Part shown: positions 6,497 through 51,943 of the stretch, in pieces
Layout: every line of letters starts with the position of its first letter
Numbering within the stretch: position 1 is the first letter of the stretch
Origin: a virus
Reading direction: 5' to 3' (one strand)
Length of the DNA stretch: 64,000 nt
IMG/VR virus record: IMGVR_UViG_3300036766_002281
Coordinates: 10,630 to 74,629 of that record
Position numbers and translations under genes: made by a program
The notes under the pieces: model-generated
What the model was told of the DNA's origin: nothing
Databases searched by the model: none
The model's input: only the letters and a program-made list of their open reading frames with translations

Positions 6497-7066
6497 ATGC
6501 GATTAGAAGAATTAAAAAGTAGTGATGATTTTGAGAATGATGATGATTACTATGAGTACATACATGAATGGGAAACAGCCGACTGGAAAGATATTGAAGG
6601 TTTAATGAATGCTATTGATCATGCGCTGGGAGCTCATGGTCTTGAGTTGATTCAAGGTAAAGGTGAAGATGATAATTACTACGTTAAAGTGGAACAACTT
6701 GGGGAAGGAAAAGACAAAGGAAAACGATCTGAGATCGAAGCTAGTCTTATGACTAAGATGAAGATCTTTCAACGGGAAGCCGTAAGATTAAATCGTAATC
6801 CAAAATCAGTTAAAGAATTTAAGCTTTGGTTAGAAGCTCAAGAACAGAGACAAGCTATTGGTAAACAGAAAGGTCCAGACGTTGGGGAAACGATCGAAGT
6901 CTATGACTTTAGAACTGACGAGATGCTTCCTGCAGAAGTTACTAGTAAACCAAGTCTCAACCAAGATACTGGGCTCGAAGAAGTGGATGTGGTCTTCGAG
7001 GATGGTATGGAACACTACGCGGTCTGGAATGATGATGAAATGATGTGGGAATCAGGGGAGCTATAG
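6497..7066 (+). CDS. leader-family protein (internal leader at 6749, SH3-like C-terminal cargo)
   Basis: MTKMKIFQREAVRLNRNPKSVKEFKLWLEA. Confidence 0.75.
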   Translation: MRLEELKSSDDFENDDDYYEYIHEWETADWKDIEGLMNAIDHALGAHGLELIQGKGEDDNYYVKVEQLGEGKDKGKRSEIEASLMTKMKIFQREAVRLNRNPKSVKEFKLWLEAQEQRQAIGKQKGPDVGETIEVYDFRTDEMLPAEVTSKPSLNQDTGLEEVDVVFEDGMEHYAVWNDDEMMWESGEL

Positions 7067-7070
7067 TTTA

Positions 7071-7256
7071 ATGATAAACAGCATAAAAGTTTCAGATATA
7101 ATTGATCGTAGTGATTCTCCAAGAGCAGAGTTAGATAAGCATATCGACAAAATAAACTTATCTGCTGATGAGAAAGAACGCTTACGAAAACTAATTAGTG
7201 ACGCATTAGATCAATCCTACCAAGAAGGAATTTGGGCAGGACAGGAATCTAGATAG
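7071..7256 (+). CDS. hypothetical protein
   Basis: 61-aa ORF packed between neighbours. Confidence 0.6.
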   Translation: MINSIKVSDIIDRSDSPRAELDKHIDKINLSADEKERLRKLISDALDQSYQEGIWAGQESR

Positions 7257-7267
7257 GGAAATGTGAG

Positions 7268-7930
7268 ATGAAAAAATACGAGCTAACCAACGAGACAACT
7301 CAATCTGCTGCTGGAGCTACTTTGTATAGGATCAAATCCTTAATCAAATCATCAGCAGATTTTGGCATTATCGATTCCGGAGAACTAGGCGGGTTTGTTG
7401 AGAGTGAGGACAATTTAGCACATGATGGTCAATGCTGGATTTCTGATAATGCACAAGTCTCTGGCAACGCACGGGTCTTTGGAAGGGCACAGGTCTCTGG
7501 AAATGCAAAAGTATTCGGCGACGCGTGGGTGGCTGGCGAAGTACAAGTCTATGACAACGCCCAAGTCTATGGAAATGCGCGGATCTCTGGGAGTGAGAAA
7601 GTTTATGGGGATATGGAAGTCAAAGGAGACGAGAAATCAACCCAGAAGGAGGGTAAAAATATGCTAAACAAGATCGAAAAGTTTCAACGTCAAGCAAAAG
7701 CTCTTGGACGAGATGAGAACTCTGTTGAAGAGTTTAAAATGTGGTTGAAGGCAGAAGAGGGAGATTCACTCAAGTTTGAAACCACAAGTGATGAAGAAGT
7801 CCATAGCAATATAGATGACATCATATCCGATTTGAATGATGTAAAGAGTTTAGGCGGTAGAGACGATATCAAAGAAAGATTACGTAATATCAAACATACT
7901 TTAGATGACATTATTAATTACTACAGATAA
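7268..7930 (+). CDS. beta-helix repeat (xNAxVx) protein fused in frame to a leader-family module starting at 7661
   Basis: KKYELT...GELGGFVESEDNL...DNAQVSGNARVFG repeats, then SD AAGGAGG + MLNKIEKFQRQAKALGRDENSVEEFKMWLKA. Confidence 0.8.
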   Translation: MKKYELTNETTQSAAGATLYRIKSLIKSSADFGIIDSGELGGFVESEDNLAHDGQCWISDNAQVSGNARVFGRAQVSGNAKVFGDAWVAGEVQVYDNAQVYGNARISGSEKVYGDMEVKGDEKSTQKEGKNMLNKIEKFQRQAKALGRDENSVEEFKMWLKAEEGDSLKFETTSDEEVHSNIDDIISDLNDVKSLGGRDDIKERLRNIKHTLDDIINYYR

Positions 7931-7940
7931 GGGAGATAAC

Positions 7941-8240
7941 ATGCTATCAAAAATCAAAGAATTTCAACGTCAAGCAAAAGCTCTTGGACGAAATGCCTAC
8001 AGCATTGAAGAATTCAAACTCTGGCTGGATGCTCAGACCAAAACCGCTGAAAAACCAGTTGAAACAGATCTAGAACTAGCTGAAGTGGCTTTAGCTAAAG
8101 CAACGGCAGCTTATTTGGATGCCCTATTACAAGACTTCGGCAAAGATGTTGTTTTAGATGAGGTAGAAGAAGCATTGGATGAGCTGACCTCTGAAACTTT
8201 TGGTCTTTGGGCAAAAGAAAAGTTTCCTTTAGATATTTAG
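7941..8240 (+). CDS. leader-family protein
   Basis: GGGAG SD; MLSKIKEFQRQAKALGRNAYSIEEFKLWLDAQTKTA. Confidence 0.85.
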   Translation: MLSKIKEFQRQAKALGRNAYSIEEFKLWLDAQTKTAEKPVETDLELAEVALAKATAAYLDALLQDFGKDVVLDEVEEALDELTSETFGLWAKEKFPLDI

Positions 8241-8301
8241 GTGATGTCAGATCTAGAAAACCATCTCAGGAAGAGGAATAACCCGAACTAGGAGTAAGAT
8301 T

Positions 8302-8829
8302 ATGTCAAACGTAAACGCAAACGTAAAAGATGTAGCTCATTATGAAGAGTACCAAAAGGAAGTAGAAACACATAAATTTGTTAGCTGGGGTATAGGTATA
8401 GGTATAGGATTAGAATTAGATAAACCTTATATTGTGGCTCCTTTAGTTGGCAAACTAGTTTTTTGTGATGAACAAGTTGATTTGGATTCTGATTATCCAT
8501 GGGATAAAAAACTTCTTGCCCCCGATCCAAGAAAAAGCCCTACTTCTCGTAGAGCAGCAATGATGTATAAATTTGTTACCTGTGGAAGTAGTGTAAAAAA
8601 AGCAAGCGAAGAAATAGTAAAAAATATAAGTATGGTTTTGAATTGTTACCCAGATTTTCAGCTGGTAGTACAAATTGCTTTGGCAGAACCTTATGAGCTT
8701 AGACGTTCTGTTGATGGGACAAAAACTTCTCGGTCTTTCGAGAAAATCGAAGGGGAATCCTACGTTGAAGATTGTGGGTTTGCCTGCGTTGTGCAAGGTT
8801 GTATTGTTAAGAATCCTAGATGGGAATAG
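8302..8829 (+). CDS. hypothetical protein
   Basis: SD AGGAG, 175 aa; GIGIGI is encoded by a (GGTATA)n repeat. Confidence 0.7.
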   Translation: MSNVNANVKDVAHYEEYQKEVETHKFVSWGIGIGIGLELDKPYIVAPLVGKLVFCDEQVDLDSDYPWDKKLLAPDPRKSPTSRRAAMMYKFVTCGSSVKKASEEIVKNISMVLNCYPDFQLVVQIALAEPYELRRSVDGTKTSRSFEKIEGESYVEDCGFACVVQGCIVKNPRWE

Positions 8830-8862
8830 GTAAAAAGGAAATTACTAGACTAGGGAAATAAA

Positions 8863-9090
8863 ATGACACTTTCTGAGCTAAGGACATTGATTGGTAATAA
8901 ATATCTTTATACTGATTTCTATACTGATTGGGAAAATAAAGGGTATGGATTTAGTTTTTCTATAATAGAAGATTCTAAAAATAAAAAAATTTATACTTTT
9001 CCAGGATTGTTTCCTGATTACAAAAGTAGAGATTTGACAGTTAAGTATATGAGACAAGTGTTTGTGCCTGATCCTGAGGAAATAATATGA
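8863..9090 (+). CDS. hypothetical protein
   Basis: 75 aa, ATGA overlap with the next gene. Confidence 0.6.
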   Translation: MTLSELRTLIGNKYLYTDFYTDWENKGYGFSFSIIEDSKNKKIYTFPGLFPDYKSRDLTVKYMRQVFVPDPEEII

Positions 9091-10676
9091 TAGAAACTAT
9101 AATCTTTAAAGATCTTTTACGTTTAACTGCTGATAAAGAAGGGTTTGTAGCCCTAAACACTTCTCGGCATACAAACAAGTGGGTAGCTGGACTTCCAGAA
9201 GAGTTGTGGGAAAGTATCTACGAGGTCAAAACAGGTGATAGAGTTGATCTAGCTTTTGTATTTAGACCAGATGCAAAGTACGATCATGCGAAACTTGCTC
9301 TTTGGCGTAATCATTTTGGAGATGCCCCTAGATTAGAAGATTACAAAGCAGACCATGCTGAAGAGTTTGGTATTGACGAAGAAGAGTTAGAACAGTTTGA
9401 GAACGCACAGGGAGAGAAAGAGGAAATCTATCGCAATGATCGTTACCAGGCTACCAACAAGGATGCCGCTAATTGGCTGTTGAACATTCCAATGAAGTTT
9501 CTTGAACGGTATTTCTATTCACGTACTACTCCAGAAGAGATTGTAAGCATCAGGCACGAACTGATCAATACCCTAGAAGGATTTGAAGCACAGCTCGAGC
9601 AGATTGGAGTCGACCCATCGGAAGTAAAGGAACTGGAATCTGAGTTTGAGACTGTAGCCACCCCTCAACAAATGGATAGGGCATTAGAAGATTTGTACAA
9701 GTTTGGGAAAGACCATGGCGTCTGGTTTGAAAGCACTTTAATGAAAGGTAGTGCAGTTACGGCTTCCAGAGTTTATAAACGATTGGTAGATGGGTGGAAT
9801 AGAATAGTTGAACCAGATTGGAGTCCGAAGATGGATAAAAGTCTGAATACAGTAGTAATTGAATTCTATGATGGGCGGACGGAAAATGTTTTAACTGAAG
9901 AACAGTTAGATGAGTTCTTGGAAGAACAATTCTCTTACAATGATATGAATGCTGGAAAGGGTTTTAAAGTTTTTAAACGAATGAGTTATCAGGATTATCA
10001 AGTTGCGGTAAACGAAATGATTGATGAGATCTTTCCCGGGCATAATATTGGATCAAGCGTGCTAGATAACTTGTGGAGAGATGGGTACAAGATTGCAACA
10101 GTAACTTTGTACAATCGGGTTTGGTATGATAAGTGTGCCCCAGATCTTAATCAACCAAGTAGTTTTGTTGAGCCAAAGATTGTGGGAATGAACCGATATT
10201 ATGAAGTAGTACAAGCTCTCGATCAAATGAATACTGCGATTGGGCATTCCGTATTGAATTGTTTCAGCGACCTTATCCTGTTTAAGAAATCAAACGCTGT
10301 AGGAAGAAAAGCACATGATCAGGATTCAGATACTGTTAGTTCCCTTGACTTGATACTCTTGAACAAGACTGTAGAAGCATTAAATAGCAGAGGACTTTCG
10401 GTAAAGGTAGAAGACTATATCGATTGGCTGACTGGAAATGTGACAAAAGGAAGTTCCCGTTTCGACCAGGCTATTAAACTCTTCTTAACAGAACCAGTTT
10501 ATAACACGTTTAAGCATTTGAATCTTGTAGATGCTAAGGTTAAATTCGAACTAGGTCTTGGCCCACCTACGGTAGACGGGATCGATGTAAGTATGAGTCC
10601 AGAAAAAGAGTCACTACAGTTACTGCCGGGATTTACTGATGCAACAGTGGAGCCGCCAGTAGTAATAACTAGGTAG
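9087..10676 (+). CDS. acidic multidomain hypothetical protein
   Basis: 529-aa ORF; motifs DLLRLTA, SAVTAS, RKA. Confidence 0.7.
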   Translation: MIETIIFKDLLRLTADKEGFVALNTSRHTNKWVAGLPEELWESIYEVKTGDRVDLAFVFRPDAKYDHAKLALWRNHFGDAPRLEDYKADHAEEFGIDEEELEQFENAQGEKEEIYRNDRYQATNKDAANWLLNIPMKFLERYFYSRTTPEEIVSIRHELINTLEGFEAQLEQIGVDPSEVKELESEFETVATPQQMDRALEDLYKFGKDHGVWFESTLMKGSAVTASRVYKRLVDGWNRIVEPDWSPKMDKSLNTVVIEFYDGRTENVLTEEQLDEFLEEQFSYNDMNAGKGFKVFKRMSYQDYQVAVNEMIDEIFPGHNIGSSVLDNLWRDGYKIATVTLYNRVWYDKCAPDLNQPSSFVEPKIVGMNRYYEVVQALDQMNTAIGHSVLNCFSDLILFKKSNAVGRKAHDQDSDTVSSLDLILLNKTVEALNSRGLSVKVEDYIDWLTGNVTKGSSRFDQAIKLFLTEPVYNTFKHLNLVDAKVKFELGLGPPTVDGIDVSMSPEKESLQLLPGFTDATVEPPVVITR

Positions 10677-10711
10677 AACAACGAAATGTATAGAGCTGCG
10701 AACATGTACGC

Positions 10712-10915
10712 ATGAAGGAGTTTATGCTTATGTTCAAGTTCACTGACGATGATGAAGTTTTGTTACGTTGCTTGAATGCCTATTTAGATTGTCCAGGATG
10801 TAAAGGGCAGTTAGTCATTACGCACATAGAATTTTCGAATACATTTTTGAGATTTGTTCCAGTTAAGAGCTGTCTATCATGCAAATCAGATTATTTTATT
10901 ACTGAGTCAGATTAG
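10712..10915 (+). CDS. small zinc-ribbon protein
   Basis: CPGC...CLSC. Confidence 0.55.
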   Translation: MKEFMLMFKFTDDDEVLLRCLNAYLDCPGCKGQLVITHIEFSNTFLRFVPVKSCLSCKSDYFITESD

Positions 10916-10935
10916 GAGCAAGCAAGCACGCACAA

Positions 10936-11103
10936 ATGGAATGCCTACATTTAGAACTAATTAGAATCGACAAGGAAGACAGTTGGCTGTTCTACCAGTG
11001 TAAGAATTGTCATTTCGAAACGGAAGTGAAGGAAACTGAATTTTACAAATCAATGACAGAAGAAGAGAGAAAACAAGTTCACGAACCTTTAGATGGAAAT
11101 TAA
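10936..11103 (+). CDS. small hypothetical protein (CxH...CKNC)
   Basis: 55-aa ORF read manually, below the ORF-track size cutoff. Confidence 0.5.
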   Translation: MECLHLELIRIDKEDSWLFYQCKNCHFETEVKETEFYKSMTEEERKQVHEPLDGN

Positions 11104-11263
11104 TTAAAGTTAATAAACCTAAGGAGAAATCAAACGAACGTGTTCAATCCTACTCAACCTGCTAGTAAAGTATCTAAACCGAAAGCAAATATTGTAAGAC
11201 CATTTGAAAAGATAATGAGACCTAAAACAAAAGTAATTAAAATAAAATTTGAAGGGAATTAAC

Positions 11264-11584
11264 ATGCTATCAAAAATAAAAGAATTTCAACGTCAAGCAA
11301 ACGAACTTAAACGGGATGAGAACTCAGTGGATGAGTTTCGTCTTTGGTTAGAAGCTAAGACAGCAGAAGAAAAAGTTTTTCCTGAAAATACACTTCCTAG
11401 ACGTATCCAACCAGGTATTCGACTTGAAATACCTAGTGGAGATATAGTAAAAGTTGTAAGTAAGCCATATGATTATATGGACAATACTGTGATTGATATA
11501 GTTTTTGATAATGGGTTGGAAACTACTGCTATATGGTATCCTGAAGATAGTAGATGGGATGCCGTAGAAGAGCCAACTGAATAA
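11264..11584 (+). CDS. leader-family protein, SH3-like cargo
   Basis: MLSKIKEFQRQANELKRDENSVDEFRLWLEAKTA. Confidence 0.85.
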   Translation: MLSKIKEFQRQANELKRDENSVDEFRLWLEAKTAEEKVFPENTLPRRIQPGIRLEIPSGDIVKVVSKPYDYMDNTVIDIVFDNGLETTAIWYPEDSRWDAVEEPTE

Positions 11585-11642
11585 GAAGAGCTTATCAACA
11601 ACGAAGCGGAACCAAGACCAAGACCAAGACCAAGGAGATAAC

Positions 11643-11951
11643 ATGCTATCAAAAATCAAAGAATTTCAACGTACTGCAAAAGAGCTGGATACTGATCCAA
11701 ATTCAATAGAACAGTTCAAGATGTACCTTGAAGCAGAATATCCTGAAGGTGGAGAAGGTTCTGCAGACGAAGTAGATTTTGCCATCGAGAAGGTAATTTC
11801 TAGTTTGTATGAATTCAAAAATGGGTTGGATAAATTAAGATATACTAACGAATCTATTTTGGAAGAGTTAGAAAATATGGATATGGTATGGGAAGTATTT
11901 AGAACTGCTGTTACAACCTTTGTTGAATCAAACACAGAAGGGGAATCTTAA
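11643..11951 (+). CDS. leader-family protein
   Basis: MLSKIKEFQRTAKELDTDPNSIEQFKMYLEA; SD AGGAG. Confidence 0.85.
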   Translation: MLSKIKEFQRTAKELDTDPNSIEQFKMYLEAEYPEGGEGSADEVDFAIEKVISSLYEFKNGLDKLRYTNESILEELENMDMVWEVFRTAVTTFVESNTEGES

Positions 11952-11960
11952 GGAGATAAC

Positions 11961-12266
11961 ATGTTAAATAAAATCAAAGAATTTCAACGTCAAGCAAACA
12001 AACTTAAAAGAGATGCCAACAGCGTTGAAGAATTTCGTCTTTGGTTAGAAGCCGATCAAAAAATGATAGAACTTAATGCTGGAATTGTTCCTAGCACAAT
12101 TAAGCAAGTTGACGAAGTCTATTCTCGATTCAAAGGTGCGAAGAATGATCTTACTAAATTGTACCACGAACTCAAGGGGGAAGACGCTGTGGATCTTTCA
12201 GCAGTTCTTACTTCCATGGATAAGGCCATGGAAGGCCTTGAAACTTTATTACAGAGGTATGCCTAA
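11961..12266 (+). CDS. leader-family protein, helical cargo
   Basis: MLNKIKEFQRQANKLKRDANSVEEFRLWLEA; SD AGGAG. Confidence 0.85.
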   Translation: MLNKIKEFQRQANKLKRDANSVEEFRLWLEADQKMIELNAGIVPSTIKQVDEVYSRFKGAKNDLTKLYHELKGEDAVDLSAVLTSMDKAMEGLETLLQRYA

Positions 12267-12267
12267 T

Positions 12268-12357
12268 ATGTTAAACAAAATCAAAGAATTTCAACGTCAA
12301 GCTAGCGAGTTAGGAAGAAATCCAAACAGCGTAGAAGAGCTTAAGTTCTGGCTGTAA
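12268..12357 (+). pseudogene. cargo-less leader (29 aa) ended by an apparent GAA>TAA nonsense change
   Basis: MLNKIKEFQRQASELGRNPNSVEELKFWL*; DNA is TGG CTG TAA GCA where W-L-E-A is expected. Confidence 0.75.
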
Positions 12358-12401
12358 GCAATACCGCTATTGTTATAAACCTATTTGTAGAAAGTGAGGG
12401 A

Positions 12402-12803
12402 GTGAATCGATATAAGTATAAAAACGGGGCAATAGTTCGCATACTTACGTTTTTAACAGTTTTAATTCTTTCTACGAGTATTATAGCGGTACAAGCACGA
12501 ACACTTCTCTCTACGGTGACTTTACTTAAATTTGAGGATGATTACGATCAGAAGGACGTAGCAGTCATGGCAGTTGTAGATCGAATAGCAAAAGTTGATG
12601 GTGCTCACGGTGGTTTTTATTACGAAGTGAGTTTATATCCAGATGTAGTAGCAGTAGCTTTTACAACACAGATAAGTAAAAGGTTAAAGGTTGGAAGCCT
12701 AGTTGAAGTCCGTGGACGTTATTTTAAGTCGAACATGTTCATGGGGAACGTTTACAAACGATTTATTATTGCAGAAAAGCTTCTGGTTCTTGACGTAAGT
12801 TAA
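12402..12803 (+). CDS. exported or membrane-anchored protein, possible OB-fold
   Basis: Hydrophobic N-terminus; LKVGSLVEVRGRY. Confidence 0.55.
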   Translation: MNRYKYKNGAIVRILTFLTVLILSTSIIAVQARTLLSTVTLLKFEDDYDQKDVAVMAVVDRIAKVDGAHGGFYYEVSLYPDVVAVAFTTQISKRLKVGSLVEVRGRYFKSNMFMGNVYKRFIIAEKLLVLDVS

Positions 12804-12965
12804 ACAGTAATAAATCAAACGAAAGCATCTTAGTTTGCGGACCGAAAATTGAGAAACACCAGCAAAAACGGTATAACAAAGTAAATCTAAAACTGAGAAA
12901 GTAAATCTACGAATAGAATGAAATCAATAGAATTAGAGCCATAAAGGAAATCTAAAAGGAAACAA

Positions 12966-13487
12966 ATGTTATCTATTATTGGAGAATTTCAAAGGGAAGC
13001 TGTTAAGTTGGCCAAAGATCCTAACTCGGTTGAGGAATTAAAGAGATTTGCTTATGCAAGAATGTCTTTTATTCATTATTCTAAAACTGAGATAGAAAAT
13101 TTAGGAAGTATGAGAGTAAATTCAATTCTTATATCTATTGCGGGACTGAACGATGATTTTGCTGAAGTAGATGATTCTCGTTTTAAAGATGTATTACGTT
13201 TAAGATTTAGTGATGTAACAAGGGACTTTGGAAAATTTTTAGCTTTTAGAAAAAATCAAGCTGAACAGATTATCGCTTTTGTAAATAGAAACATTCCAGT
13301 TGATTTTGTTTACATCAACTGCGAACAAGGCAGATCTAGATCGGCAGCTATTCATTCAGCTTTAGAAAAAATTTATCATGCAAAAGAGGTTAATTTCCTT
13401 CATTGTAATTTACAGGTCAAGGAGACTTTGTTAGATGTTATCAAAAATCAAAGAGTTTCAGAAGTTAGCACAAGAATTAGACCGTAA
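12966..13487 (+). CDS. leader-family protein carrying a protein-tyrosine-phosphatase-like cargo
   Basis: Leader MLSIIGEFQREAVKLAKDPNSVEELKRF; then LISI, LRLRFSD, INCEQGRSRSAAI (CX5R). Confidence 0.8.
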   Translation: MLSIIGEFQREAVKLAKDPNSVEELKRFAYARMSFIHYSKTEIENLGSMRVNSILISIAGLNDDFAEVDDSRFKDVLRLRFSDVTRDFGKFLAFRKNQAEQIIAFVNRNIPVDFVYINCEQGRSRSAAIHSALEKIYHAKEVNFLHCNLQVKETLLDVIKNQRVSEVSTRIRP

Positions 13488-13893
13488 TCCAAACAGCGTA
13501 GAAGAGCTTCGGCTTTGGTTAGAGGCTCAAACCAAAACGGCTCAGGATCTTAGTTTTACTTCGGATGTTGATGATGTTGATATTCGACCTCGACCAAAAG
13601 ATGTTGATTTTGTAAATGCAAAAGCCAAAGTATTCTGGGATCTGCAAATGGACGCCCGGGAATATGGGATTAAGGATATCTACCCAACAGTTAGAAAAGT
13701 TGTGATTTCAGGAACGTATGAGTACGCCGTAGATATTGATGAAGAGGCAAGAGAAGAAGAGTTTGAGCTCTCCATTACAGCGGAAGAATGGAATATAAAA
13801 GAGGACTTAATGGGTGCGAAATTTGCTAACGGGTTGTACCCTTCTACAGTAAACGTAGACCAAGAATCAAAACAATGTACAGTTGAGTTTTGA
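13435..13893 (+). CDS. leader-family protein
   Basis: MLSKIKEFQKLAQELDRNPNSVEELRLWLEAQTKTA. Confidence 0.85.
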   Translation: MLSKIKEFQKLAQELDRNPNSVEELRLWLEAQTKTAQDLSFTSDVDDVDIRPRPKDVDFVNAKAKVFWDLQMDAREYGIKDIYPTVRKVVISGTYEYAVDIDEEAREEEFELSITAEEWNIKEDLMGAKFANGLYPSTVNVDQESKQCTVEF

Positions 13894-13914
13894 TAGATAG
13901 AACGTTACGAACGA

Positions 13915-14307
13915 ATGATATTAGATCTGAAACAATTTAAAAACGATCTTAAGCATTTGAATCGACATGGAAGTTCCCGGTGCGTTTTAGTAAATGTTTA
14001 CATGATTTCAGATTCAGAGCTCTATCACCGTTTTGTTACAGAACGTTTGAGAGTAGCATTTCCACTCGTTCTAGTTGTGGAAGAATCAAAAATTTTTAGT
14101 GGTTTTTCAAACGATTCTTATAGTAAAATTATGGATAAAATATACAATCGAGAGATTGTACTGTTTTCATTTGAGAATGCTGATGTAGGATTTGGTTATA
14201 ATATTGAGCATCTTCGTAGTAAAGTGCAAGCTGTTGTTGATGAAAGTTTTAGACAAAGAATAGACAAGACCTTTAAACGTATGGAGAGTGAACATGTTGT
14301 CAGATGA
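13915..14307 (+). CDS. hypothetical protein
   Basis: 130-aa ORF. Confidence 0.6.
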   Translation: MILDLKQFKNDLKHLNRHGSSRCVLVNVYMISDSELYHRFVTERLRVAFPLVLVVEESKIFSGFSNDSYSKIMDKIYNREIVLFSFENADVGFGYNIEHLRSKVQAVVDESFRQRIDKTFKRMESEHVVR

Positions 14308-16459
14308 AATAGGCGGTAAACTTCTAGATCTTGAACAACGTAAAGAAGCTGCAAAAGTTAGTAATCATCTACATACTGCAGTAGAAAAGCTCAGAGCAAT
14401 AGAAGAAGCTATTTTAAAGTTTTGTACCAAACCTAGAACTTCCAGCCAGGTTATACAGCTCTTTCCTGCTCGTCCTTTTAACATCTTGGCAATCATGGAA
14501 AATCTTAGAGTTAAAGATATGCTTACTCTTGCTGCCAATAAGTATGTCACAAACGTTGAGCATAGAGAGTTTGATGTCAGCATGACTATGACAGCTGATA
14601 GACGCAGCTTTACTTCGAAGACAGAGGAAATGTGGAGCTATTCCGACCAGGAAAGCAAACGTAGGCTTCTTTCAAAAGCTCATGTAATTCCAGAGAACGT
14701 TCCCAGATTCGCAGCAGAAGAATGGGCTCATCTTCCATCATGGGTTCAGAAGGCAGTTGAATATGAGCATAAGCATCCAGCCATTTTAGCAGAAGTTGAG
14801 GGTCAGGCAGAATATCCAGATCGCCCAAGTATTCAAACTATAAAAGATGCAGACGGACAATTCTACGCAGAAGAAGTTGAAGAGTCTGGAGGAGATTGGG
14901 GAGTATTCGATACCGAAGTAGGACATTGTTTTGCTACTTACTCAGGATCAGCTAAAGCAGAAAAAGAAGCGGATAAAATGAATCAAGAACATGGGCTAGG
15001 AAAGTATAAAAAGAAAAAAGCTGATGACGCTCCTGCAACTATAAATGTCAATGAGCAATCGCAACTTCAGCAAGTTGAAGGTGCAGAAGAAGATCACGGT
15101 CCTTCGTGTGAGATCTGTGGTTATGAATTTACCGAATCCCCTCAATTTGGAAACTCAGATATATGCCAACGTTGTGCTAAGGATCCTAACAAACGAGAAC
15201 AGTATGCAAGAGATGCTGGTTACGGTAAATGGCGGGGTGGGGACGAACGTAGTCTTGATCAGGCAGTTTCGGGCGAGATTGTTCCCTTCGGGGATAAATG
15301 GTGGAAGTTTACAGGTAGAATGACTTACAAACAATTGCGACCTGGAGTGATTTTTGGAGCCACTTATAGAGCCTTTAACGCCGGGTTTACTATTGAAGAG
15401 TTTCTTGGCTATTCTGGAAGAGATGTTAAGTATGGAGAAGGTGGTAAAAAGTATGATACCATCCAAGAAGTTTTTAAAGCTGAAGGAGTTAATTCCTTAA
15501 AGGCATTAGAAGCAAAACAAGATGAAGGGGAATACGGTTTTCATACCTACATGTGTACCAAGGAGTTGAGTGGTAAGCTGGAAGAGGGATGTTACTACTA
15601 CATTAGCGAAGGTAGATGGAGTAGAGGATCTGGTGCTGAGGCATTAAGCTTCTGGACAGTTGAAGAAATGGCAAAGCCAGAAAAGTATGAGGATGAAGAA
15701 GGTGGAGCCTTCGCACCAAGAAAGCATTCTCCTAGAGATCTATCGGTATCTGATCTTAAGGAAAGCCGGAGACGAAGACAAGCTTGTGATAAGGGGCAAT
15801 TTATCGAGCTTACATCAGTACAGGATGTTGATACAGGAGTAACTACAGATAATCCAATAGAGCTCCAGGAAGTGGTTGACTCTGGATTGAGTGCCAATTA
15901 CAAAGCTACGTTTATTACCAATGGTAGATCCAGAACTGCAATGTTGTCTACCTTGCCTGTAAAGAAGATAAAAGTTAAAACAGCAGAACCATTAATTCGA
16001 CAAGTTAAATCGGCAGATTCCAGTTTCGAAGAACATGTTAAGAAATTAATGCAAGAGGCTTTCAAGTATTATTCTGAACAGACAAAAATTATTCCAGACA
16101 CAGTAGATATCTGGAACGACGTTTTGAACAGTTTGTCTAGAGAACGTGGTACTACCTTAACCAAAGAAGAAGAGAATGAAGTCTGGGCTATTATTACTGG
16201 CGAGGAACCAGAAGGCGGAGGCGAAGACGAGATTGATATCAGTGGCTGTGGAACACAGATTAAGCAATTCCAAAGTGAAGCCAAACGATTAGGTCGTAAT
16301 GCTAACAGTGTTGAAGAACTTAAACTATGGATGGAAGCTGACAACGCTGAAAAAGAAGAACCTTTCAAATGGAAACACAAAACTTATGAAGAACCACCAC
16401 CTACAGCAGAACAAATATTACAAGAAATGGAAGATAAAGAATTTGATTCGTTCTGGTAA
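14288..16459 (+). CDS. acidic modular polyprotein with K/R-x-A motifs and a leader copy near the C-terminus
   Basis: KKA, RQA, RTA, KTA, KSA motifs; TQIKQFQSEAKRLGRNANSVEELKLWMEA at ~16250-16339. Confidence 0.75.
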   Translation: MNMLSDEIGGKLLDLEQRKEAAKVSNHLHTAVEKLRAIEEAILKFCTKPRTSSQVIQLFPARPFNILAIMENLRVKDMLTLAANKYVTNVEHREFDVSMTMTADRRSFTSKTEEMWSYSDQESKRRLLSKAHVIPENVPRFAAEEWAHLPSWVQKAVEYEHKHPAILAEVEGQAEYPDRPSIQTIKDADGQFYAEEVEESGGDWGVFDTEVGHCFATYSGSAKAEKEADKMNQEHGLGKYKKKKADDAPATINVNEQSQLQQVEGAEEDHGPSCEICGYEFTESPQFGNSDICQRCAKDPNKREQYARDAGYGKWRGGDERSLDQAVSGEIVPFGDKWWKFTGRMTYKQLRPGVIFGATYRAFNAGFTIEEFLGYSGRDVKYGEGGKKYDTIQEVFKAEGVNSLKALEAKQDEGEYGFHTYMCTKELSGKLEEGCYYYISEGRWSRGSGAEALSFWTVEEMAKPEKYEDEEGGAFAPRKHSPRDLSVSDLKESRRRRQACDKGQFIELTSVQDVDTGVTTDNPIELQEVVDSGLSANYKATFITNGRSRTAMLSTLPVKKIKVKTAEPLIRQVKSADSSFEEHVKKLMQEAFKYYSEQTKIIPDTVDIWNDVLNSLSRERGTTLTKEEENEVWAIITGEEPEGGGEDEIDISGCGTQIKQFQSEAKRLGRNANSVEELKLWMEADNAEKEEPFKWKHKTYEEPPPTAEQILQEMEDKEFDSFW

Positions 16460-16557
16460 GTCTTAATTAAAAATGATGGAAGAATATTAATTCGAAAGGA
16501 TTAAAACAATTAACAAACTAACAATCAACATTAAACGAAACGAAGGAGAACACGACT

Positions 16558-16962
16558 ATGTACGCTTTCATCGCAGCTTACAAACTTTATATTACCAATG
16601 GTGGTTCTGGATCAGCAACAAGTTTAACTGACTTCTTGACCTGGTTTAATGGCATTAGAAATGCCCTTACTCAGGAGCAGCAGATTTATATTGATCTTCT
16701 GAGTAATTCTGCTTATGCAACGTTCAGAAACAAATCTTCTGCTGTAATTCAAGAAGCAGTGCATGGTCTTGAATTTATTGATAACGTTGATAACTATACA
16801 GATCCAGCAAATACTGCCACTGCCTATCCAACAACTGTTTCAGGAAGTACTGTGATGGCCACAGCATTTATTAAGGCAGAGCTGGCAATGTTTGATAAGG
16901 TTATTAACGAGAATGGGCAATCGAGTAATAGTCAGGTAAATACTCTTCAAACGCTTTTATAA
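16558..16962 (+). CDS. hypothetical protein, possibly structural
   Basis: Strong SD AAGGAG; Ala/Thr/Asn-rich, 134 aa. Confidence 0.65.
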   Translation: MYAFIAAYKLYITNGGSGSATSLTDFLTWFNGIRNALTQEQQIYIDLLSNSAYATFRNKSSAVIQEAVHGLEFIDNVDNYTDPANTATAYPTTVSGSTVMATAFIKAELAMFDKVINENGQSSNSQVNTLQTLL

Positions 16963-17003
16963 GCGTAAGTGATCAAACGAAAGAAAGGTAGGCAATTAAA
17001 TCC

Positions 17004-17300
17004 ATGCTGGACCAAATCAAAGCATTTCAAAAGGAAGCTAAAGCTCTTGGTCGTAATGAGAACTCTGTGGAGGAGTTCAAGCTATGGATTGAGAGCGAGT
17101 CTCAGTCTCAATCGCAGACCAAGCAAGCTGCTGAACCAGAGGAAGATTACGATGAAGATAGAAAAAAGGTAATGGGAGATATCAAAAAGGAAATTGATTT
17201 TGTGTTAGAAAATTCATTTCCAGAGTTAGAGAACTTAGAGACTGTTATGTTCTTTGAGGACAATGATCCTGTTATAAAAGTAAGATTTATAGGTAGGTAA
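17004..17300 (+). CDS. leader-family protein
   Basis: MLDQIKAFQKEAKALGRNENSVEEFKLWIES...TKQA. Confidence 0.85.
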   Translation: MLDQIKAFQKEAKALGRNENSVEEFKLWIESESQSQSQTKQAAEPEEDYDEDRKKVMGDIKKEIDFVLENSFPELENLETVMFFEDNDPVIKVRFIGR

Positions 17301-17307
17301 AATACCA

Positions 17308-17610
17308 ATGCTGAATAAAATTAAAGAATTTCAACGTCAAGCAAACGAACTTAAACGAGATCCAAACTCTTTGTCTGAGTTCAAACTCTGGCTGGATGCT
17401 CAGACCAAGACAGCTGCTTCAGACACTGTAAAAGCTATTTTCACTTTAGAAATCAGAGATGATGATACTGGATATCCTGTTGATGTAGATTACAGTGAGT
17501 ATGAGGAAATGATGGAAAAACTTGAACAGATACTTATGAGAGCAAGATACAAAGGAGAAGGGTTAAACGCAGTAATTACTTCCCATGCTGATTCTGGTTG
17601 GCAAGGGTAA
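17308..17610 (+). CDS. leader-family protein
   Basis: MLNKIKEFQRQANELKRDPNSLSEFKLWLDAQTKTA. Confidence 0.85.
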   Translation: MLNKIKEFQRQANELKRDPNSLSEFKLWLDAQTKTAASDTVKAIFTLEIRDDDTGYPVDVDYSEYEEMMEKLEQILMRARYKGEGLNAVITSHADSGWQG

Positions 17611-17623
17611 ACTGTAAGAGCCT

Positions 17624-18646
17624 ATGAATTACAAATACCTGATGGTAAAAGTGGCTCATTTCCAGCACGATGCCCATAATCCGAATTCGATAGATGAATT
17701 TAAACTTTGGTTAGAAGCCAGAAACAGGCATGCCTGGATTGAACCACTGGGGGATGAAGATACTTTAAGAACGTATCTGAAAGAAAACCATCCAGAATCT
17801 TTGGATGGTAACCATCCTGTGTATCTTTTTGTGGATGAGTCGTTTGAAGAACATAAACTGATGTTAGTAGGCTCCACGCCTATTACTCTAAACTTTTTGA
17901 AGAACTTTAAAAGATTGTATAATGAGACAGAGCAAGAACGTGAAGACGAAGCGGCAGAAAAAGAAGCACTACCACCAGTTCTATCAAATAAAAAATCGTA
18001 TAAAAATGGAGCGCCCAACATGTTAAAAGAACTAAATCAATTTCAGAAGGAAGCAAAACAACTAGGAAGAAATGAGAACTCTGTTAATGAGTTTATATTA
18101 TGGCTGGAAGCAAGATCGCAATCTAAAACGGCATTAAGTGATGAGGCAAACAAATTCATTAGTGACAAAATTAGTAAGCTTCATGACGAAGGTTATGAAG
18201 GGGATCAAGCTATTGCTATAGCTCATGAGTATGCCAGAGATGCTGGCTACGATGTTCCAAGTCCAAAAAGTTCTTATACAAAAACGAAAAAGAAAGCTGA
18301 TCCAGATCCAGAACCTGAGGCAGACTTTGGACCAGACGAAGACTTGGGGGATCAAATAGAAGACGTAATGGAACATGAGGATGACCCAGAAAAGGAAGCC
18401 AAGCAGTTGATGGCTCTTTGGGAAAAAGGTGAGATGAGTTTGAAAGAGCTTCACCACCATATCTTAGAAGAATATGGTACGGAGCAGGAAGAAGAAAACA
18501 TTGAAGACATCGTTTTTGATCTAATTGACAAGCACGTCAAAGAGCTCAAGGGCGAAACCGAAGATGAGAGCGAGAGCGAGAGCGAGCTCGAAGAAGAGGA
18601 AGAGGAAGAAGGAGTAGGCGAAGAAGTTGGAGTACCAGAAAAATAG
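17624..18646 (+). CDS. double leader-family protein (degenerate leader ~17642; second leader at 18020)
   Basis: HFQHDAHNPNSIDEFKLWLEA and MLKELNQFQKEAKQLGRNENSVNEFILWLEARSQSKTA; very acidic tail. Confidence 0.8.
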   Translation: MNYKYLMVKVAHFQHDAHNPNSIDEFKLWLEARNRHAWIEPLGDEDTLRTYLKENHPESLDGNHPVYLFVDESFEEHKLMLVGSTPITLNFLKNFKRLYNETEQEREDEAAEKEALPPVLSNKKSYKNGAPNMLKELNQFQKEAKQLGRNENSVNEFILWLEARSQSKTALSDEANKFISDKISKLHDEGYEGDQAIAIAHEYARDAGYDVPSPKSSYTKTKKKADPDPEPEADFGPDEDLGDQIEDVMEHEDDPEKEAKQLMALWEKGEMSLKELHHHILEEYGTEQEEENIEDIVFDLIDKHVKELKGETEDESESESELEEEEEEEGVGEEVGVPEK

Positions 18647-18647
18647 G

Positions 18648-19034
18648 ATGAAAATAATCGTGTACAAGACTAGGGAAATAGAGAAGATAATTTCGTTTTT
18701 CCAGCATTTACCCGATGACTGGGATAGTTACGGGAGCCCACGTCCTAGTGCTAAAACTATTTATTCGTTAGAAAAGTTTACATCAAAGTTCTTTAAATTT
18801 TTCTATCTTCGAAATTCTGTTTATGCTATTCCAGGTGGGGGTATCCAACTTGATTTTAGGTATGAGCAGAAAGTTTTAGGATTTGAAATCTTTTCCAACG
18901 GGGAAATTCGTTATGAGCAGTATATAGGTAATAATCTGCTTTCCTGCAACGATCCTATTTGTAATAAGATTTCTTTGAAGGAAGATCTGGCAGATGCTCA
19001 GTTTAATGCTTTACTAAACTGGTTGATGGAGTAG
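18648..19034 (+). CDS. hypothetical protein (LPDDWDSYG motif)
   Basis: ORF 18627-19034; ATG 18648 follows the upstream stop. Confidence 0.65.
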   Translation: MKIIVYKTREIEKIISFFQHLPDDWDSYGSPRPSAKTIYSLEKFTSKFFKFFYLRNSVYAIPGGGIQLDFRYEQKVLGFEIFSNGEIRYEQYIGNNLLSCNDPICNKISLKEDLADAQFNALLNWLME

Positions 19035-19041
19035 CGAGTAA

Positions 19042-19386
19042 ATGATTCATGCGATAAAGGTTTTTCAACGTGAGGCAAGAGAGTTGGGTAGAGATGCCAA
19101 CAGCGTTAAAGAGTTAAAACTTTGGTTTCAGGCAATGACTGACGCTAAGTTTGATTACATTTTTGAGAAGCATCCAGAGTTTAAAACGCAATCAAGTCAT
19201 GAAATAATACAAATACTTAAGAATAGGTATCATCTGGACGGAGAAGAGATTACAGATTTTTTAAAACGTTTTATGCTAAGAGATGAAAAAGAAGCAGTAG
19301 CTCCTTATGATGTGGATCAGACGGAGGGTCGGCCAGGACATTCTTATGAAGAAATTCGTGATGTGTTAACTGGATTAGGAATATAA
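19042..19386 (+). CDS. leader-family protein
   Basis: MIHAIKVFQREARELGRDANSVKELKLWFQA. Confidence 0.8.
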   Translation: MIHAIKVFQREARELGRDANSVKELKLWFQAMTDAKFDYIFEKHPEFKTQSSHEIIQILKNRYHLDGEEITDFLKRFMLRDEKEAVAPYDVDQTEGRPGHSYEEIRDVLTGLGI

Positions 19387-19568: not shown

Positions 19569-19607
19569 AACGTTCGTTTGTTCTCATTCCACTAAGGGAG
19601 GCTGAAC

Positions 19608-19913: not shown

Positions 19914-19922
19914 ACAAACTAC

Positions 19923-20123: not shown

Positions 20124-20147
20124 ACAGTCATGTATCGAAAGTAAGAA

Positions 20148-50758: not shown

Positions 50759-51913
50759 ATGTTAAAAACCAATCCGTATAGGAAAGCTGCTAAAAAGGCA
50801 ACCATTCCTAGCAAGACAAATGAAAAAGTATTTGATGAAGCTGGAAAATACAATCCAAGACCTATTGGAAGAATGAGAGGCGATGGTAAAATAGTTGCTG
50901 CAAAATCTGGTCGGATGTTTGACAAGTCAGGGCAGGTCAACGCATACGACAATAAAGATTTGCTTCAGCAGGTTGCCTATCTTCTCCAGAATGTAACAAA
51001 AGAGAATCCAGTTCCAAAAGAAGCCATGAGAAAAGAATCTGCTCTTTCTAAATCTGCAAAACAGAGAGCAATCGTGGCGGCTTTCAAAGATCCAACAGGA
51101 GAAGGATTCCATATGATTGGCCAGGAATTACTTGCTCCAATCAAGGAACTCATCGACTATGAAGGTTGGGCAAGAAAGTGCTTGAGAGTTCGGCCTTTAG
51201 CTCAGGGTGAGATCTTCCGTTTGACGAAAGACGTTGCATATCAAACGGTTTCCTGGGTTATCGGACAGGATGGTATGACTCCTGAATCAAGGGTGATTGG
51301 TCGGTATGTTGTCGGTCCAGAATTCAAAGTGACCGCCTTCGTAGATATCGATATCGCTGAGATCTACCAAATGCAGTTCGATGGACTCGATCGGGCACAA
51401 GACCTGGCCAGACAGGACATCGAAAGAAAAGAAGATCAGGCTTTCATCACGGCACTAGACAAAGCTTCGACCACTTACAATTCAATTACCTACTTCTCTA
51501 GCTTATCAGTTTCAGCTTTTGAAGATGTCCGGTTTCAGGTTGAACGTAACCGGTTGGTAGTTGATAAATTTCTCATTAACCGTCAAGAGTTGTCTGATGT
51601 TGTTAAGACAATGTCCGGGGCGGTTGATCCAGCCACTCAGAGAGAGTTGATCCTTTCTGGGTACATTGGAAATATTTTAAATACCCAGATCGTAACATCA
51701 GCGGGTACAGGAACTTTCGAAGTTGTCCCTGCTGGAAAGATCTACGCGGTTCCAGCAGCGGAATATCTTGGAGACATGGGTATTCGTATCGATCTGTTCT
51801 CAGAGCCCTACAACAGATATGCAGTTGGAGAAACTGTTAAGGGCTGGGCCCTGATCGAGCAAATTGGATACATTCTTCCGAATGCTCGTGCAGCTGCAAA
51901 AGGTAGCAAATAA
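50759..51913 (+). CDS. major capsid protein (HK97-like fold, inferred)
   Basis: PIKELIDYEGWARK..V.PLAQGE, PEF.V, LDRAQ..A..I..KED, VPAGKIYAV..AEYLG; 384 aa; strong SD; position after the scaffold. Confidence 0.85.
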   Translation: MLKTNPYRKAAKKATIPSKTNEKVFDEAGKYNPRPIGRMRGDGKIVAAKSGRMFDKSGQVNAYDNKDLLQQVAYLLQNVTKENPVPKEAMRKESALSKSAKQRAIVAAFKDPTGEGFHMIGQELLAPIKELIDYEGWARKCLRVRPLAQGEIFRLTKDVAYQTVSWVIGQDGMTPESRVIGRYVVGPEFKVTAFVDIDIAEIYQMQFDGLDRAQDLARQDIERKEDQAFITALDKASTTYNSITYFSSLSVSAFEDVRFQVERNRLVVDKFLINRQELSDVVKTMSGAVDPATQRELILSGYIGNILNTQIVTSAGTGTFEVVPAGKIYAVPAAEYLGDMGIRIDLFSEPYNRYAVGETVKGWALIEQIGYILPNARAAAKGSK

Positions 51914-51943
51914 GTAAGTAGTAAAAGTGGTTTATCTAGGCCC

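What the first reader, a model, noticed from the sequence alone, without database searches (positions are those of the whole stretch)
6749..19135. Fifteen copies of a ~31-aa leader peptide on diverse cargo proteins: candidate capsid-targeting cargo cassette system
Seen: the motif M-L-x-K-I-K-E-F-Q-R-x-A-x-x-L-x-R-[DN]-x-N-S-V-E-E-[FL]-K-L-W-L-E-A starts at 7941, 11264, 11643, 11961, 12268, 12966, 13435, 17004, 17308, ~17642 (degenerate) and 19042. It is also internal at 6749, 7661, ~16250 and 18020. The downstream sequence is mostly unrelated and acidic: helical domains, SH3-like domains and a phosphatase. In 8 copies a K/R-x-A site follows within 2-12 residues (QTKTA x3, KTA, SKTA, TKQA, RQA, RHA). 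Established: T4 internal proteins share a short N-terminal capsid-targeting sequence (MKTYQEFIAE) that the prohead protease removes, and IPI* blocks the GmrSD restriction enzyme. Inference: this is a longer, distinct address tag that loads a variable arsenal of proteins into the head for ejection into the host. I do not recognise it as a named family.
Basis: partly seen in the sequence, partly recalled or inferred. Interest (0 to 1): 0.92.

Follow-up and report, generated by a model that had tools for sequence, protein, structure and literature searches.

The report
Shared two-helix tag on phage proteins
Fourteen neighbouring genes of an uncultured giant sediment phage attach the same uncatalogued 31-residue two-helix module to unrelated, mostly acidic proteins; it is most likely a portable address label, perhaps for loading them into the virus head, but nothing shows yet where it sends them.

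Summary
Observation confirmed. A profile of the motif finds 15 copies in 14 open frames between 6746 and 19134 and nothing else on the 74.6-kb record. Synonymous sites between copies are near saturation (dN/dS about 0.23), so the peptide itself is under selection.

AlphaFold2 models it twice as helix 2-14, a six-residue turn and helix 22-33, joined to different folds: an all-beta domain and a DUSP-like Cys-phosphatase.

It is a portable domain, not a strict leader. It is N-terminal in ten window copies, internal in four, with one stand-alone remnant, and C-terminal in four foreign proteins. Orthologous cargoes gain, truncate or lose it.

About 60 further protein clusters carry it, all from metagenomic phage contigs. 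No Pfam, NCBIfam or PHROG family covers it. There is only sub-threshold similarity to the first helix and turn of the HNH_repeat.

A K/R-x-A motif follows the module in 25 of 69 cases (9 expected). It survives where helix 1 is lost, and it is enriched in a neighbouring polyprotein-like ORF.

The phage has a protease-scaffold fusion, and in one relative two tagged genes sit directly behind the capsid gene.

Capsid loading with proteolytic release is therefore the best reading (about 0.4), but it is unproven.

The scan has noted analogous, non-homologous short-leader arrays in other phages.

The parts
6497..7066 (+). 189-aa acidic protein. Internal module copy at 6746-6838, followed by QEQRQA and a beta-rich C-terminal domain paralogous to the 11264 cargo.
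7268..7930 (+). 220-aa protein: YdcK-type beta-solenoid, then an internal module copy at 7661-7753 that keeps its own SD and ATG, then a helical tail.
7941..8240 (+). 99-aa protein: module at 7941-8033, then QTKTA, then an acidic helical cargo.
11264..11584 (+). 106-aa protein: module at 11264-11356, then KTA, then a beta-rich cargo.
11643..11951 (+). 102-aa protein: module at 11643-11735 plus an acidic helical cargo. No K-x-A junction.
11961..12266 (+). 101-aa protein: module at 11961-12053 plus a helical cargo. Full-length orthologue P0065 (48% identity) lies on a 68-kb foreign contig.
12268..12357 (+). Module-only remnant: 29 codons, then TAA in place of the GAA of codon 30. No cargo follows in frame.
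12966..13487 (+). 173-aa basic protein: module at 12966-13058 fused directly to a DUSP-like Cys-phosphatase fold (C-x5-R).
13435..13893 (+). 152-aa protein: module at 13435-13527, a flexible QTKTAQD linker, then an all-beta cargo of no known fold.
14288..16459 (+). 723-aa protein with a module copy near its C-terminus (16247-16339, no ATG). It also contains KKKA-D and KVKTA-E sites.
17004..17300 (+). 98-aa protein: module at 17004-17096, an SQ-rich linker ending TKQA, then an acidic cargo.
17308..17610 (+). 100-aa protein: module at 17308-17400, then QTKTA, then cargo.
17624..18646 (+). 340-aa protein with two copies. The first (17642-17719) is degenerate and followed by RNRHA. The second (18020-18112) has its own GGAG and ATG and is followed by SQSKTA. 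The tail is very acidic. P0068 and P0072 are two-copy homologues.
19042..19386 (+). 114-aa protein: module at 19042-19134 plus cargo. Orthologues are P0054 and P0064.
13915..13980 (+). Possible sixteenth, half-decayed copy (helix 1 and turn only) at the N-terminus of the 130-aa ORF 13915-14307.
   Evidence: hhalign probability 16%, weak
46936..49827 (+). 963-aa head maturation protease (aa 46-238) fused to a scaffold-like region. Candidate processing enzyme and candidate binding partner of the module (inference).
50759..51913 (+). Major capsid protein. Candidate binding partner (inference). In relative L010 two module genes follow its orthologue directly.

Best explanation
The 31 residues are a small, independently folding helix-loop-helix domain: a basic helix 1, a conserved G-R-D/N-x-N-S turn, and an acidic, Trp-bearing helix 2. 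This lineage of large uncultured phages attaches it by domain shuffling to many unrelated, mostly small and acidic proteins.

It acts as a portable address, or docking, module that brings all of them to one common partner. That the domain is portable is shown; that it docks on a partner is inferred.

The partner I think most likely is the inside of the assembling prohead (scaffold, capsid protein or portal), so the tagged proteins would be co-assembled into the head. In roughly a third of them the basic-x-Ala junction just after helix 2 would be cut by the phage's head maturation protease. That would free the cargo to leave with the DNA at the next infection.

Orthologues that have lost or truncated the module would then act only after being made in the cell. 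This parallels T4 Alt (packaged) against ModA/ModB (not packaged), a comparison drawn from general knowledge.

The destination and the cleavage are inference.
For: Shown:
- There are 15 copies under purifying selection with saturated synonymous sites.
- The two AlphaFold2 models place the same hairpin (H2-14, H22-32/33, pLDDT 85-94) on two different folds. In one model the QTKTAQD junction is the weakest stretch.
- About 60 foreign clusters carry the module at N-terminal, internal or C-terminal positions, on contigs of 15 to 209 kb.
- Orthologous cargoes occur with the module, with only its helix-2 half, or without it.
- Many polar positions are conserved across the family's 74 copies (Q9, R17, D/N18, N20, S21, E24, K26, W/Y28). 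That is more than a bare hairpin needs and suggests a specific interface.

Supporting the head-loading reading:
- K/R-x-A lies within 15 residues after the module in 25 of 69 cases, against 9.0 +/- 2.6 in shuffles (maximum 19 in 2000). It sits mostly at a fixed offset.
- The junction (K-T-A-N, K-R-A-S) is kept in P0078 and P0079 although helix 1 is gone.
- A stricter basic-x-Ala-acidic motif occurs 8 times, against 1.0 expected (z = 7), in the neighbouring 893-aa ORF. It also occurs in the portal tail.
- A head maturation protease is fused to the scaffold.
- In relative L010 (capsid protein 73% identical) two module genes follow the capsid gene. Only a terminator-like hairpin, about 20 nt and an SD lie between, leaving no room for a promoter.
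- In L008 and L014 a module gene abuts the terminase neighbourhood.
- Cargoes are acidic. They include a Cys-phosphatase and, in relatives, a ParB-nuclease plus phosphatase.

Precedents from the literature: the T4 capsid targeting sequence (PMC3012670), and the helix-turn-helix coat-binding domain of the P22 scaffolding protein, which is used to load foreign cargo (PMC9962691).
Against: - There is no virion proteome, no expression data and no binding data; this is an uncultured phage.
- The array lies about 30 kb from the head genes, in a stretch of small unknown genes of the kind that is often early.
- Two thirds of family members lack a K-x-A junction.
- No K-x-A site in the capsid protein or scaffold could be tied to a known maturation cut. 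The candidate capsid site is not conserved in Rctr197k.
- T4-type targeting needs only about 10 residues, so a folded 31-residue domain suggests a different kind of partner.
- The nearest deposited relative by capsid protein (Rctr197k, 55%) has no copy (with the positive control).
- Helix 1 and the turn resemble a repeat found in homing endonucleases.
Confidence: 0.4

Rival explanations
1. The module is a docking domain for a hub other than the capsid. It would bind one host or phage machine (for example RNA polymerase, the replisome, the nucleoid or a defence complex) and recruit many small acidic effector domains to it inside the infected cell, without any packaging.
For: - The array sits among small unknown genes far from the head module.
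- Conserved polar surface positions imply a specific partner.
- The module tolerates any position in a protein.
- Most members lack the K-x-A junction.
- Small acidic proteins are typical of host-takeover and anti-defence factors (general knowledge).
Against: - It does not explain the enriched and conserved basic-x-Ala junction.
- It does not explain why module genes sit behind the capsid gene and next to the terminase genes in relatives.
- No candidate hub was identified.
Confidence: 0.25
2. The module is a minimal nucleic-acid-binding helix-turn-helix, related to the first two helices of the homing-endonuclease-associated repeat (PF18780) or to SAP/HeH motifs. It would tether the cargoes to DNA.
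For: - Pfam HNH_repeat is the only family hit to the bare module (E = 0.018).
- Three HNH-repeat proteins appear among the 75 profile hits.
- Local hhalign gives probability 95% over 20 columns, matching I..FQ..A..LGR.
- Relatives fuse the module to a ParB-like nuclease domain.
- Tandem copies occur in P0068 and P0072.
Against: - The score is below Pfam's cut-off (15.8 against 26 bits).
- The global hhalign probability is only 32%, and the compared proteins were picked by the module's own profile.
- The third helix of the repeat is missing.
- The would-be recognition helix is acidic (S-V-E-E-F-K-L-W-L-E-A) and the cargoes are strongly acidic.
- There were no SAP, HeH or HTH hits at E <= 5.
Confidence: 0.12
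3. The module is a self-association domain. Two-helix hairpins would pair into four-helix bundles, so the tagged proteins would form homo- or hetero-oligomers (a co-assembling body), with no external receptor.
For: - Helix 2 carries hydrophobic residues on more than one face (V22, F25, L27, W28, L29), which a lone hairpin cannot bury.
- Many paralogues sharing one interface could co-assemble.
Against: - No oligomer prediction could be run.
- The strongly conserved polar turn is not explained.
- This reading is compatible with, rather than exclusive of, head loading.
Confidence: 0.1
4. There is no common function. The family would be a tandemly duplicated gene whose N-terminus is conserved and whose C-termini have simply diverged beyond recognition.
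For: The genes are arranged in tandem with similar sizes of about 100 aa. Two cargoes are paralogous.
Against: - The cargoes have different folds: all-beta, alpha/beta phosphatase and beta-solenoid.
- The phosphatase and solenoid cargoes belong to families that exist without the module.
- The module is also found at internal and C-terminal positions.
Confidence: 0.05

Closest known systems
Capsid targeting sequence (CTS) of phage T4 internal proteins IPI-III and Alt
   Same: One conserved peptide sits on several unrelated proteins of one phage. The cargo genes are arranged as cassettes and turn over. A short junction motif follows the tag, and the phage encodes a head maturation protease. Cargoes are small, and enzyme cargo is possible.
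   Different: - The T4 tag is about 10 residues, strictly N-terminal, and ends in the L/I-x-E cut site.
- This module is 31 residues and folds as a helix-loop-helix.
- It also occurs at internal and C-terminal positions, and it has no sequence similarity to the T4 tag.
- Its candidate junction is basic-x-Ala and is present in only about a third of members.
- Packaging is not shown here.
[quoted passage not shown]
   Same: It is a two-helix hairpin of about 30-40 residues that is sufficient, as a portable fusion, to carry foreign proteins into procapsids (PMC9962691, PMC9965877). Both have a charged, amphipathic character.
   Different: No sequence relationship was tested or seen. The P22 domain belongs to one scaffold protein, not to a family of 14 cargo proteins. 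This phage's own scaffold shows no copy of the module.
Pfam PF18780 HNH_repeat (homing endonuclease associated repeat)
   Same: Helix 1 and the turn share the pattern I-x-x-[FL]-Q-x-x-A-x-x-L-G-R.
   Different: The match is below the family threshold. The repeat is about 54 residues with a third helix (F-G-S-F-N...A-G-L) that the module lacks. The module has no link with HNH nucleases, and its helix 2 is acidic.
Shared short N-terminal leader arrays noted by this scan in other jumbo phages (e.g. e1-5370560, e1-5757319)
   Same: Arrays of neighbouring unrelated genes share one N-terminal peptide and are read as capsid-loading tags.
   Different: Those tags are 8-12 residues long and end in the T4-type protease motif. 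None shares sequence with this module. They are unchecked AI notes, not evidence.

Membership tests
T4-type capsid targeting sequence | Short (about 10 aa), strictly N-terminal peptide | tested here: not met
   The module is 31 aa and folds as two helices. It is internal in 4 window copies and C-terminal in P0026, P0044, P0051 and P0061.
T4-type capsid targeting sequence | The tag ends at the cut motif of the phage's prohead protease | tested here: inconclusive
   A K/R-x-A junction is enriched (25 of 69 against 9 expected), but the protease's specificity is unknown and two thirds of members lack the motif.
T4-type capsid targeting sequence | Tagged proteins are present in virions and processed | not testable with these tools
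   This is an uncultured phage. There is no proteome, and no RNA run is listed.
T4-type capsid targeting sequence | The phage encodes a head maturation protease | tested here: met
   Residues 46-238 of ORF 46936-49827 match phrog_18299, head maturation protease, at E = 4e-39.
Pfam PF18780 HNH_repeat | Score at or above the gathering threshold | tested here: not met
   15.8 bits against a cut-off of 26, in one copy only.
Pfam PF18780 HNH_repeat | Full repeat of about 54 aa, including the third helix | tested here: not met
   hhalign aligns only 20 columns (helix 1 and the turn). The global probability is 32%.
SAP / HeH / other helix-turn-helix DNA-binding motifs | Profile match to the family | tested here: inconclusive
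   No such Pfam hit appeared at E <= 5 for any of the 14 proteins. Short motifs can escape HMMER. No profile-profile search against Pfam was available.
P22-type scaffold coat-binding helix-turn-helix | Two-helix hairpin that binds the capsid protein | tested here: inconclusive
   The hairpin is predicted with confidence. Binding could not be tested because no multimer prediction was available.
RiPP precursor leaders (Nif11 / NHLP type) | A leader family match followed by a short modified core peptide | tested here: not met
   There was no NCBIfam leader hit. The cargoes are folded domains of 67-690 aa.

The most novel reading that the evidence does not exclude
A clade of uncultured jumbo phages uses a folded 31-residue helix-loop-helix domain as a general ticket into the prohead, in effect a scaffold-like capsid-binding module. 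It would be coupled to a new maturation-protease code (basic-x-Ala, then acidic) that also cuts neighbouring polyproteins. This would be a programmable cargo-loading system unrelated in sequence to the T4 tag.
Probability: 0.3. Interest if true: 0.75.

Novelty: new variant of a known kind. Interest (0 to 1): 0.55.

Why it matters
If the module loads proteins into the head, it would show that phages outside the T4 group have invented cargo addressing independently. They would have done so with a folded domain rather than a short peptide, and with a different protease code.

It would also mark more than 70 dark-matter protein clusters as candidate injected effectors: anti-defence factors, a phosphatase, and a ParB-nuclease plus phosphatase.

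It would further offer a ready-made fusion tag for loading foreign proteins into large capsids.

Even if the destination is different, a 31-residue domain under strong selection that is swapped among so many proteins defines a new uncatalogued family, and its single reader protein would be worth finding.

Tried and rejected
- IMG/VR scans with the profile, with a back-translated pattern, and with P0033 and P0023 gave no true relatives.
- The phages collection and genome contigs gave nothing for P0033.
- Metagenome loci could not be searched as whole records.
- The metagenome pattern scan gave 13 loci. Nine carry true copies. L015 and L017 gave no hit, and L016 and L019 gave only a marginal one (E = 0.011).
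- Rctr197k, the nearest deposited relative by capsid protein, has no copy; the same tool finds all 15 copies in the window's own record.
- A PDB sequence search with the profile returned only chance matches.
- The ESM Atlas gave no usable feature hit, and its structure rows were generic helical hairpins.
- PHROG hits to the bare module were weak: phrog_28431 in 3 of 15 copies, best E = 0.016.
- The all-beta cargo of 13435 has no clear solved relative. Foldseek against the PDB gave E >= 0.065, and VIA gave a best Z of 4.7. Only unnamed viral models matched.
- The 893-aa ORF has no homologue of similar length, so conservation of its K-T-A sites could not be tested.
- No RNA holder is listed for the stretch.
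- hhalign of the module family against every other protein of the contig found no copy in the scaffold, portal or capsid protein.
- Rejected: a DNA-level repeat kept by recombination alone, because synonymous sites are saturated.
- Rejected: a RiPP leader, because the cargoes are folded domains.

Full report
**Setting.** The window is bases 10630-74629 of a 74,629-base virus record. All genes run on the + strand.
- The record encodes a large terminase (28624-30531), a ribonucleotide reductase, an intein-bearing portal (43341-46661), and a 963-aa protein whose residues 46-238 match a head maturation protease and whose remainder looks like scaffold (46936-49827).
- It also encodes a 237-aa Ig-like protein and the major capsid protein (50759-51913).
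- CheckV rates the record 43% complete. The same proteins occur on a 211,832-bp contig in the large protein collection, so this is a fragment of a jumbo phage.
- The source is a sediment metagenome.
- The nearest deposited capsid protein is that of Virus Rctr197k, at 55% identity.

- A profile built from the motif and run on all six frames of the record finds 15 domains in 14 open frames, between 6746 and 19134. Domain E-values are 1e-14 to 1e-21 (6e-07 for the shortened copy at 17642). Everything else scores E of about 1 or worse. An independent tool returns the same 15.
- In the window F8, Q9, A12 and S21 are invariant.
- Over 74 copies from all sources, F8 and A12 (73 of 74 each), S21 (70), Q9 (68), E24 (65), I5 and N20 (64 each), K26 (62), R17 (58), W28 (57, plus 15 Tyr) and D/N18 (73) are kept.
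- The copies are old. Nucleotide identity averages 62%. Only half the codons are identical where the residue is identical. Median dS is about 1.5, with 37 of 78 pairs saturated or not calculable, and dN/dS is about 0.23.
- The peptide, not the DNA, is therefore what is conserved.

**What the module is.**
- Two AlphaFold2 models, each with a 25-28 row alignment, give the same picture: helix 2-14, a six-residue turn (G-R-D/N-x-N-S, ending in an N-cap), and helix 22-32/33, at pLDDT 85-94.
- In the 13435 protein the hairpin is followed by a weak linker, which is the lowest-confidence block and contains QTKTAQD. An all-beta domain follows (mean pLDDT 89.5).
- In the 12966 protein a beta strand follows directly, then an alpha/beta domain (mean pLDDT 82).
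- The best Foldseek matches of that domain are all dual-specificity/PTP Cys-phosphatases (probability 0.99, E about 3e-3, TM about 0.45). Its C-x5-R motif sits on the strand-loop-helix.
- Other cargoes are a YdcK-type beta-solenoid, helical segments, and a pair of paralogous beta-rich domains.
- One module is thus joined to several unrelated folds. That excludes simple divergence of a duplicated gene.
- Helix 1 is basic and helix 2 is acidic. Cargoes are acidic in 12 of 13 cases (pI below 5.1, against 19% of all proteins on the contig).

**It is a portable domain rather than a leader in the strict sense.**
- In the window it is N-terminal ten times and internal four times (6746, 7661, 16247, 18020). 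The copy at 12268 stands alone: 29 codons closed by TAA where the other copies have GAA.
- The copies at 7661 and 18020 keep a Shine-Dalgarno sequence and an ATG. They therefore look like former stand-alone genes fused to their upstream neighbour.
- An exhaustive profile search of 1.84 billion representatives found 75 proteins at E <= 1e-3. Thirteen are the window's own and three are HNH-repeat proteins. The remaining 59 are foreign.
- Most foreign members are 80-130 aa with the module at residue 1. In P0026, P0044, P0051 and P0061 it is the last element of the protein. In P0009, P0030, P0047, P0067 and P0074 it is internal. In P0068 and P0072 it is doubled.
- The foreign members sampled lie on contigs of 1.5 to 209 kb. 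None of the 62 foreign members scanned has a Pfam domain at E <= 1e-3.

**Gain and loss on orthologous cargo.**
- The cargo of 13435 has close orthologues (64-83% identity) whose N-termini are shortened modules. P0078 and P0079 keep only S-V-K-D-x-x-E-A-S-x-K-[TR]-A-[SN]-D. MAFFT aligns this to N-S-V-E-E-L-R-L-W-L-E-A-Q-T-K-T-A-Q-D.
- The phosphatase cargo occurs in three forms: module-ParBc-phosphatase (P0084, P0085), a short module-phosphatase fragment (P0058), and ParBc-phosphatase with no module at all (P0083, on a 195.8-kb contig).
- Other pairs keep module and cargo together, for example 11961 and P0065 at 48% identity over the full length.

**The junction motif.**
- K/R-x-A occurs within 15 residues after the module in 25 of 69 family members. 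Composition-preserving shuffles of the same tails give 9.0 +/- 2.6, with a maximum of 19 in 2000.
- The motif's rate in the tails is four times that in the rest of the same proteins. It sits mostly at offset +3 to +5, as in QTKTA, QKKTA, HTKQA and TEKRA.
- It is retained in the truncated orthologues above.
- A stricter form (basic, T/Q/S/V/K/R, Ala, then D/E/A/G/S) occurs 8 times, against 1.0 expected, in the neighbouring 893-aa ORF 3381-6062 (z = 7). Contig-wide it occurs 47 times against 21 expected.
- The portal tail holds S-K-T-A-E.
- In the protease-scaffold, two Ala-Ser/Ala-Ala sites are conserved with the L010 orthologue. One lies just after the protease domain and one lies 30 residues from the C-terminus. 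These are positions where herpesvirus protease-scaffold fusions cut after Ala (general knowledge). This is a lead, not a demonstration.
- I could not tie any site in the capsid protein to a maturation cut.

**Context in relatives.** A back-translated pattern scan of metagenome contigs gave nine loci with true copies, mostly from one groundwater assembly and often with two or three copies per short contig.
- In L010 the order is protease-scaffold (45% identity), the 237-aa homologue, the capsid protein (73%), and then two module genes.
- Between the capsid stop codon and the first module gene lie only a perfect 12-bp stem-loop with a T-run, about 20 nt, and an SD. That gene is most simply transcribed by read-through from the capsid gene.
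- In L008 and L014 a module gene abuts the orthologue of 26998-27738, next to the terminase.
- In L018 the module sits near the C-terminus of an 886-aa protein whose core matches window 21289-22113.
- The module genes thus behave like cassettes dropped between conserved genes, several of them late genes.

**Known families.**
- Pfam, NCBIfam and PHROGs have no family for the module.
- The only hint is PF18780 HNH_repeat (E = 0.018, 15.8 bits against a cut-off of 26), together with three HNH-repeat proteins among the weakest profile hits.
- A local hhalign of the 74-copy family against repeats cut from those three proteins gives 95% probability over 20 columns (helix 1 and the turn). A global alignment gives 32%. 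The comparison is biased, because those proteins were selected by the module's own profile.
- The third helix of that repeat is absent, and helix 2 of the module is acidic. DNA binding therefore seems unlikely but is not excluded.

**Interpretation.**
- What is shown: a new, portable two-helix domain under purifying selection, shuffled onto unrelated cargo in a clade of large uncultured phages, often followed by a conserved basic-x-Ala junction.
- What is inferred: it docks all these proteins on one partner.
- I rank the prohead interior first (about 0.4). The reasons are the junction motif, the protease, the polyprotein neighbour, the late-gene contexts in relatives, and two precedents: the T4 capsid targeting sequence (PMC3012670) and the P22 scaffold helix-turn-helix that loads fused cargo (PMC9962691).
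- A non-capsid hub comes second (0.25). Nucleic-acid binding (0.12), self-association (0.10) and no common function (0.05) follow.

**Earlier notes of this scan.**
- Notes on the same genome about K/R-x-A punctuation (e1-6049131, e1-6049115) and about fused modules that keep their own RBS (e1-6049129) agree with what I measured.
- The scan has also recorded analogous short-leader arrays in other phages (for example e1-5370560, e1-5757319). By sequence look-up none shares this module.

**Limits.**
- No multimer prediction, no Pfam-wide profile-profile search, no virion proteome and no RNA data were available.

Noticed in passing
window 12268-12401: This module copy is cut short by TAA at codon 30 (the other copies have GAA), and only six more codons follow the stop in the same frame. 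The next ORF (12402-12803, 133 aa, one predicted membrane helix) is in another frame. It looks like a cassette whose cargo was replaced or lost.
   Followed up: partly
window 971, 11132, 12817, 16975, 19514, 19902, 28460, 49879, 49889: The motif (ATC)AAACGAA[AC]G occurs 10 times, against 1.2 expected. Most sites lie in intergenic DNA 20-165 nt upstream of three module gene clusters, the Zn-ribbon genes, the terminase and the decoration-capsid operon. It is a candidate promoter or regulatory element shared by module genes and late genes.
   Followed up: partly
window 3381-6062: The 893-aa acidic ORF has 8 basic-x-Ala-acidic sites, against 1.0 expected (z = 7), between small modules that include Zn-ribbons. 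It looks like a polyprotein. No homologue of similar length exists in 5.8 billion proteins.
   Followed up: partly
window 43341-46661: The portal gene carries an intein (Hint plus LAGLIDADG, residues about 356-780). Its acidic C-terminal tail contains S-K-T-A-E.
   Followed up: no
window 46936-49827: The head maturation protease is fused to a roughly 700-residue scaffold-like region, the same organisation as herpesvirus UL26 or P2 gpO. Ala-Ser/Ala-Ala sites after the protease domain and 30 residues from the C-terminus are conserved with the L010 orthologue.
   Followed up: partly
window 6069-6455: A bona fide DSPc dual-specificity phosphatase without the module (Pfam E = 2.5e-15) lies immediately upstream of the first module gene. 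The phage therefore has two Cys-phosphatase-like genes, one tagged and one untagged.
   Followed up: partly
window 13915-14307: The N-terminus of this ORF (M-I-L-D-L-K-Q-F-K-N-D-L-K-H-L-N-R-H-G-S-S) resembles helix 1 and the turn of the module. It may be a sixteenth, decayed copy (hhalign probability only 16%).
   Followed up: partly
window 51914-52041 and L010 500-575: A strong hairpin directly after the capsid gene is conserved in position in the relative. In the window an RRXRR-domain ORF follows it, while in L010 two module genes do.
   Followed up: partly
window 24213-25382: A 389-aa ORF matches PHROG transposase family phrog_506 (E = 2e-123) inside the phage. Shorter relatives are present on the L011/L018 contig.
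   Followed up: no
window 19389-20703: A run of small Cys-rich (Zn-ribbon-like C-x2-C ... C-x2-C) ORFs lies directly downstream of the module array.
   Followed up: no
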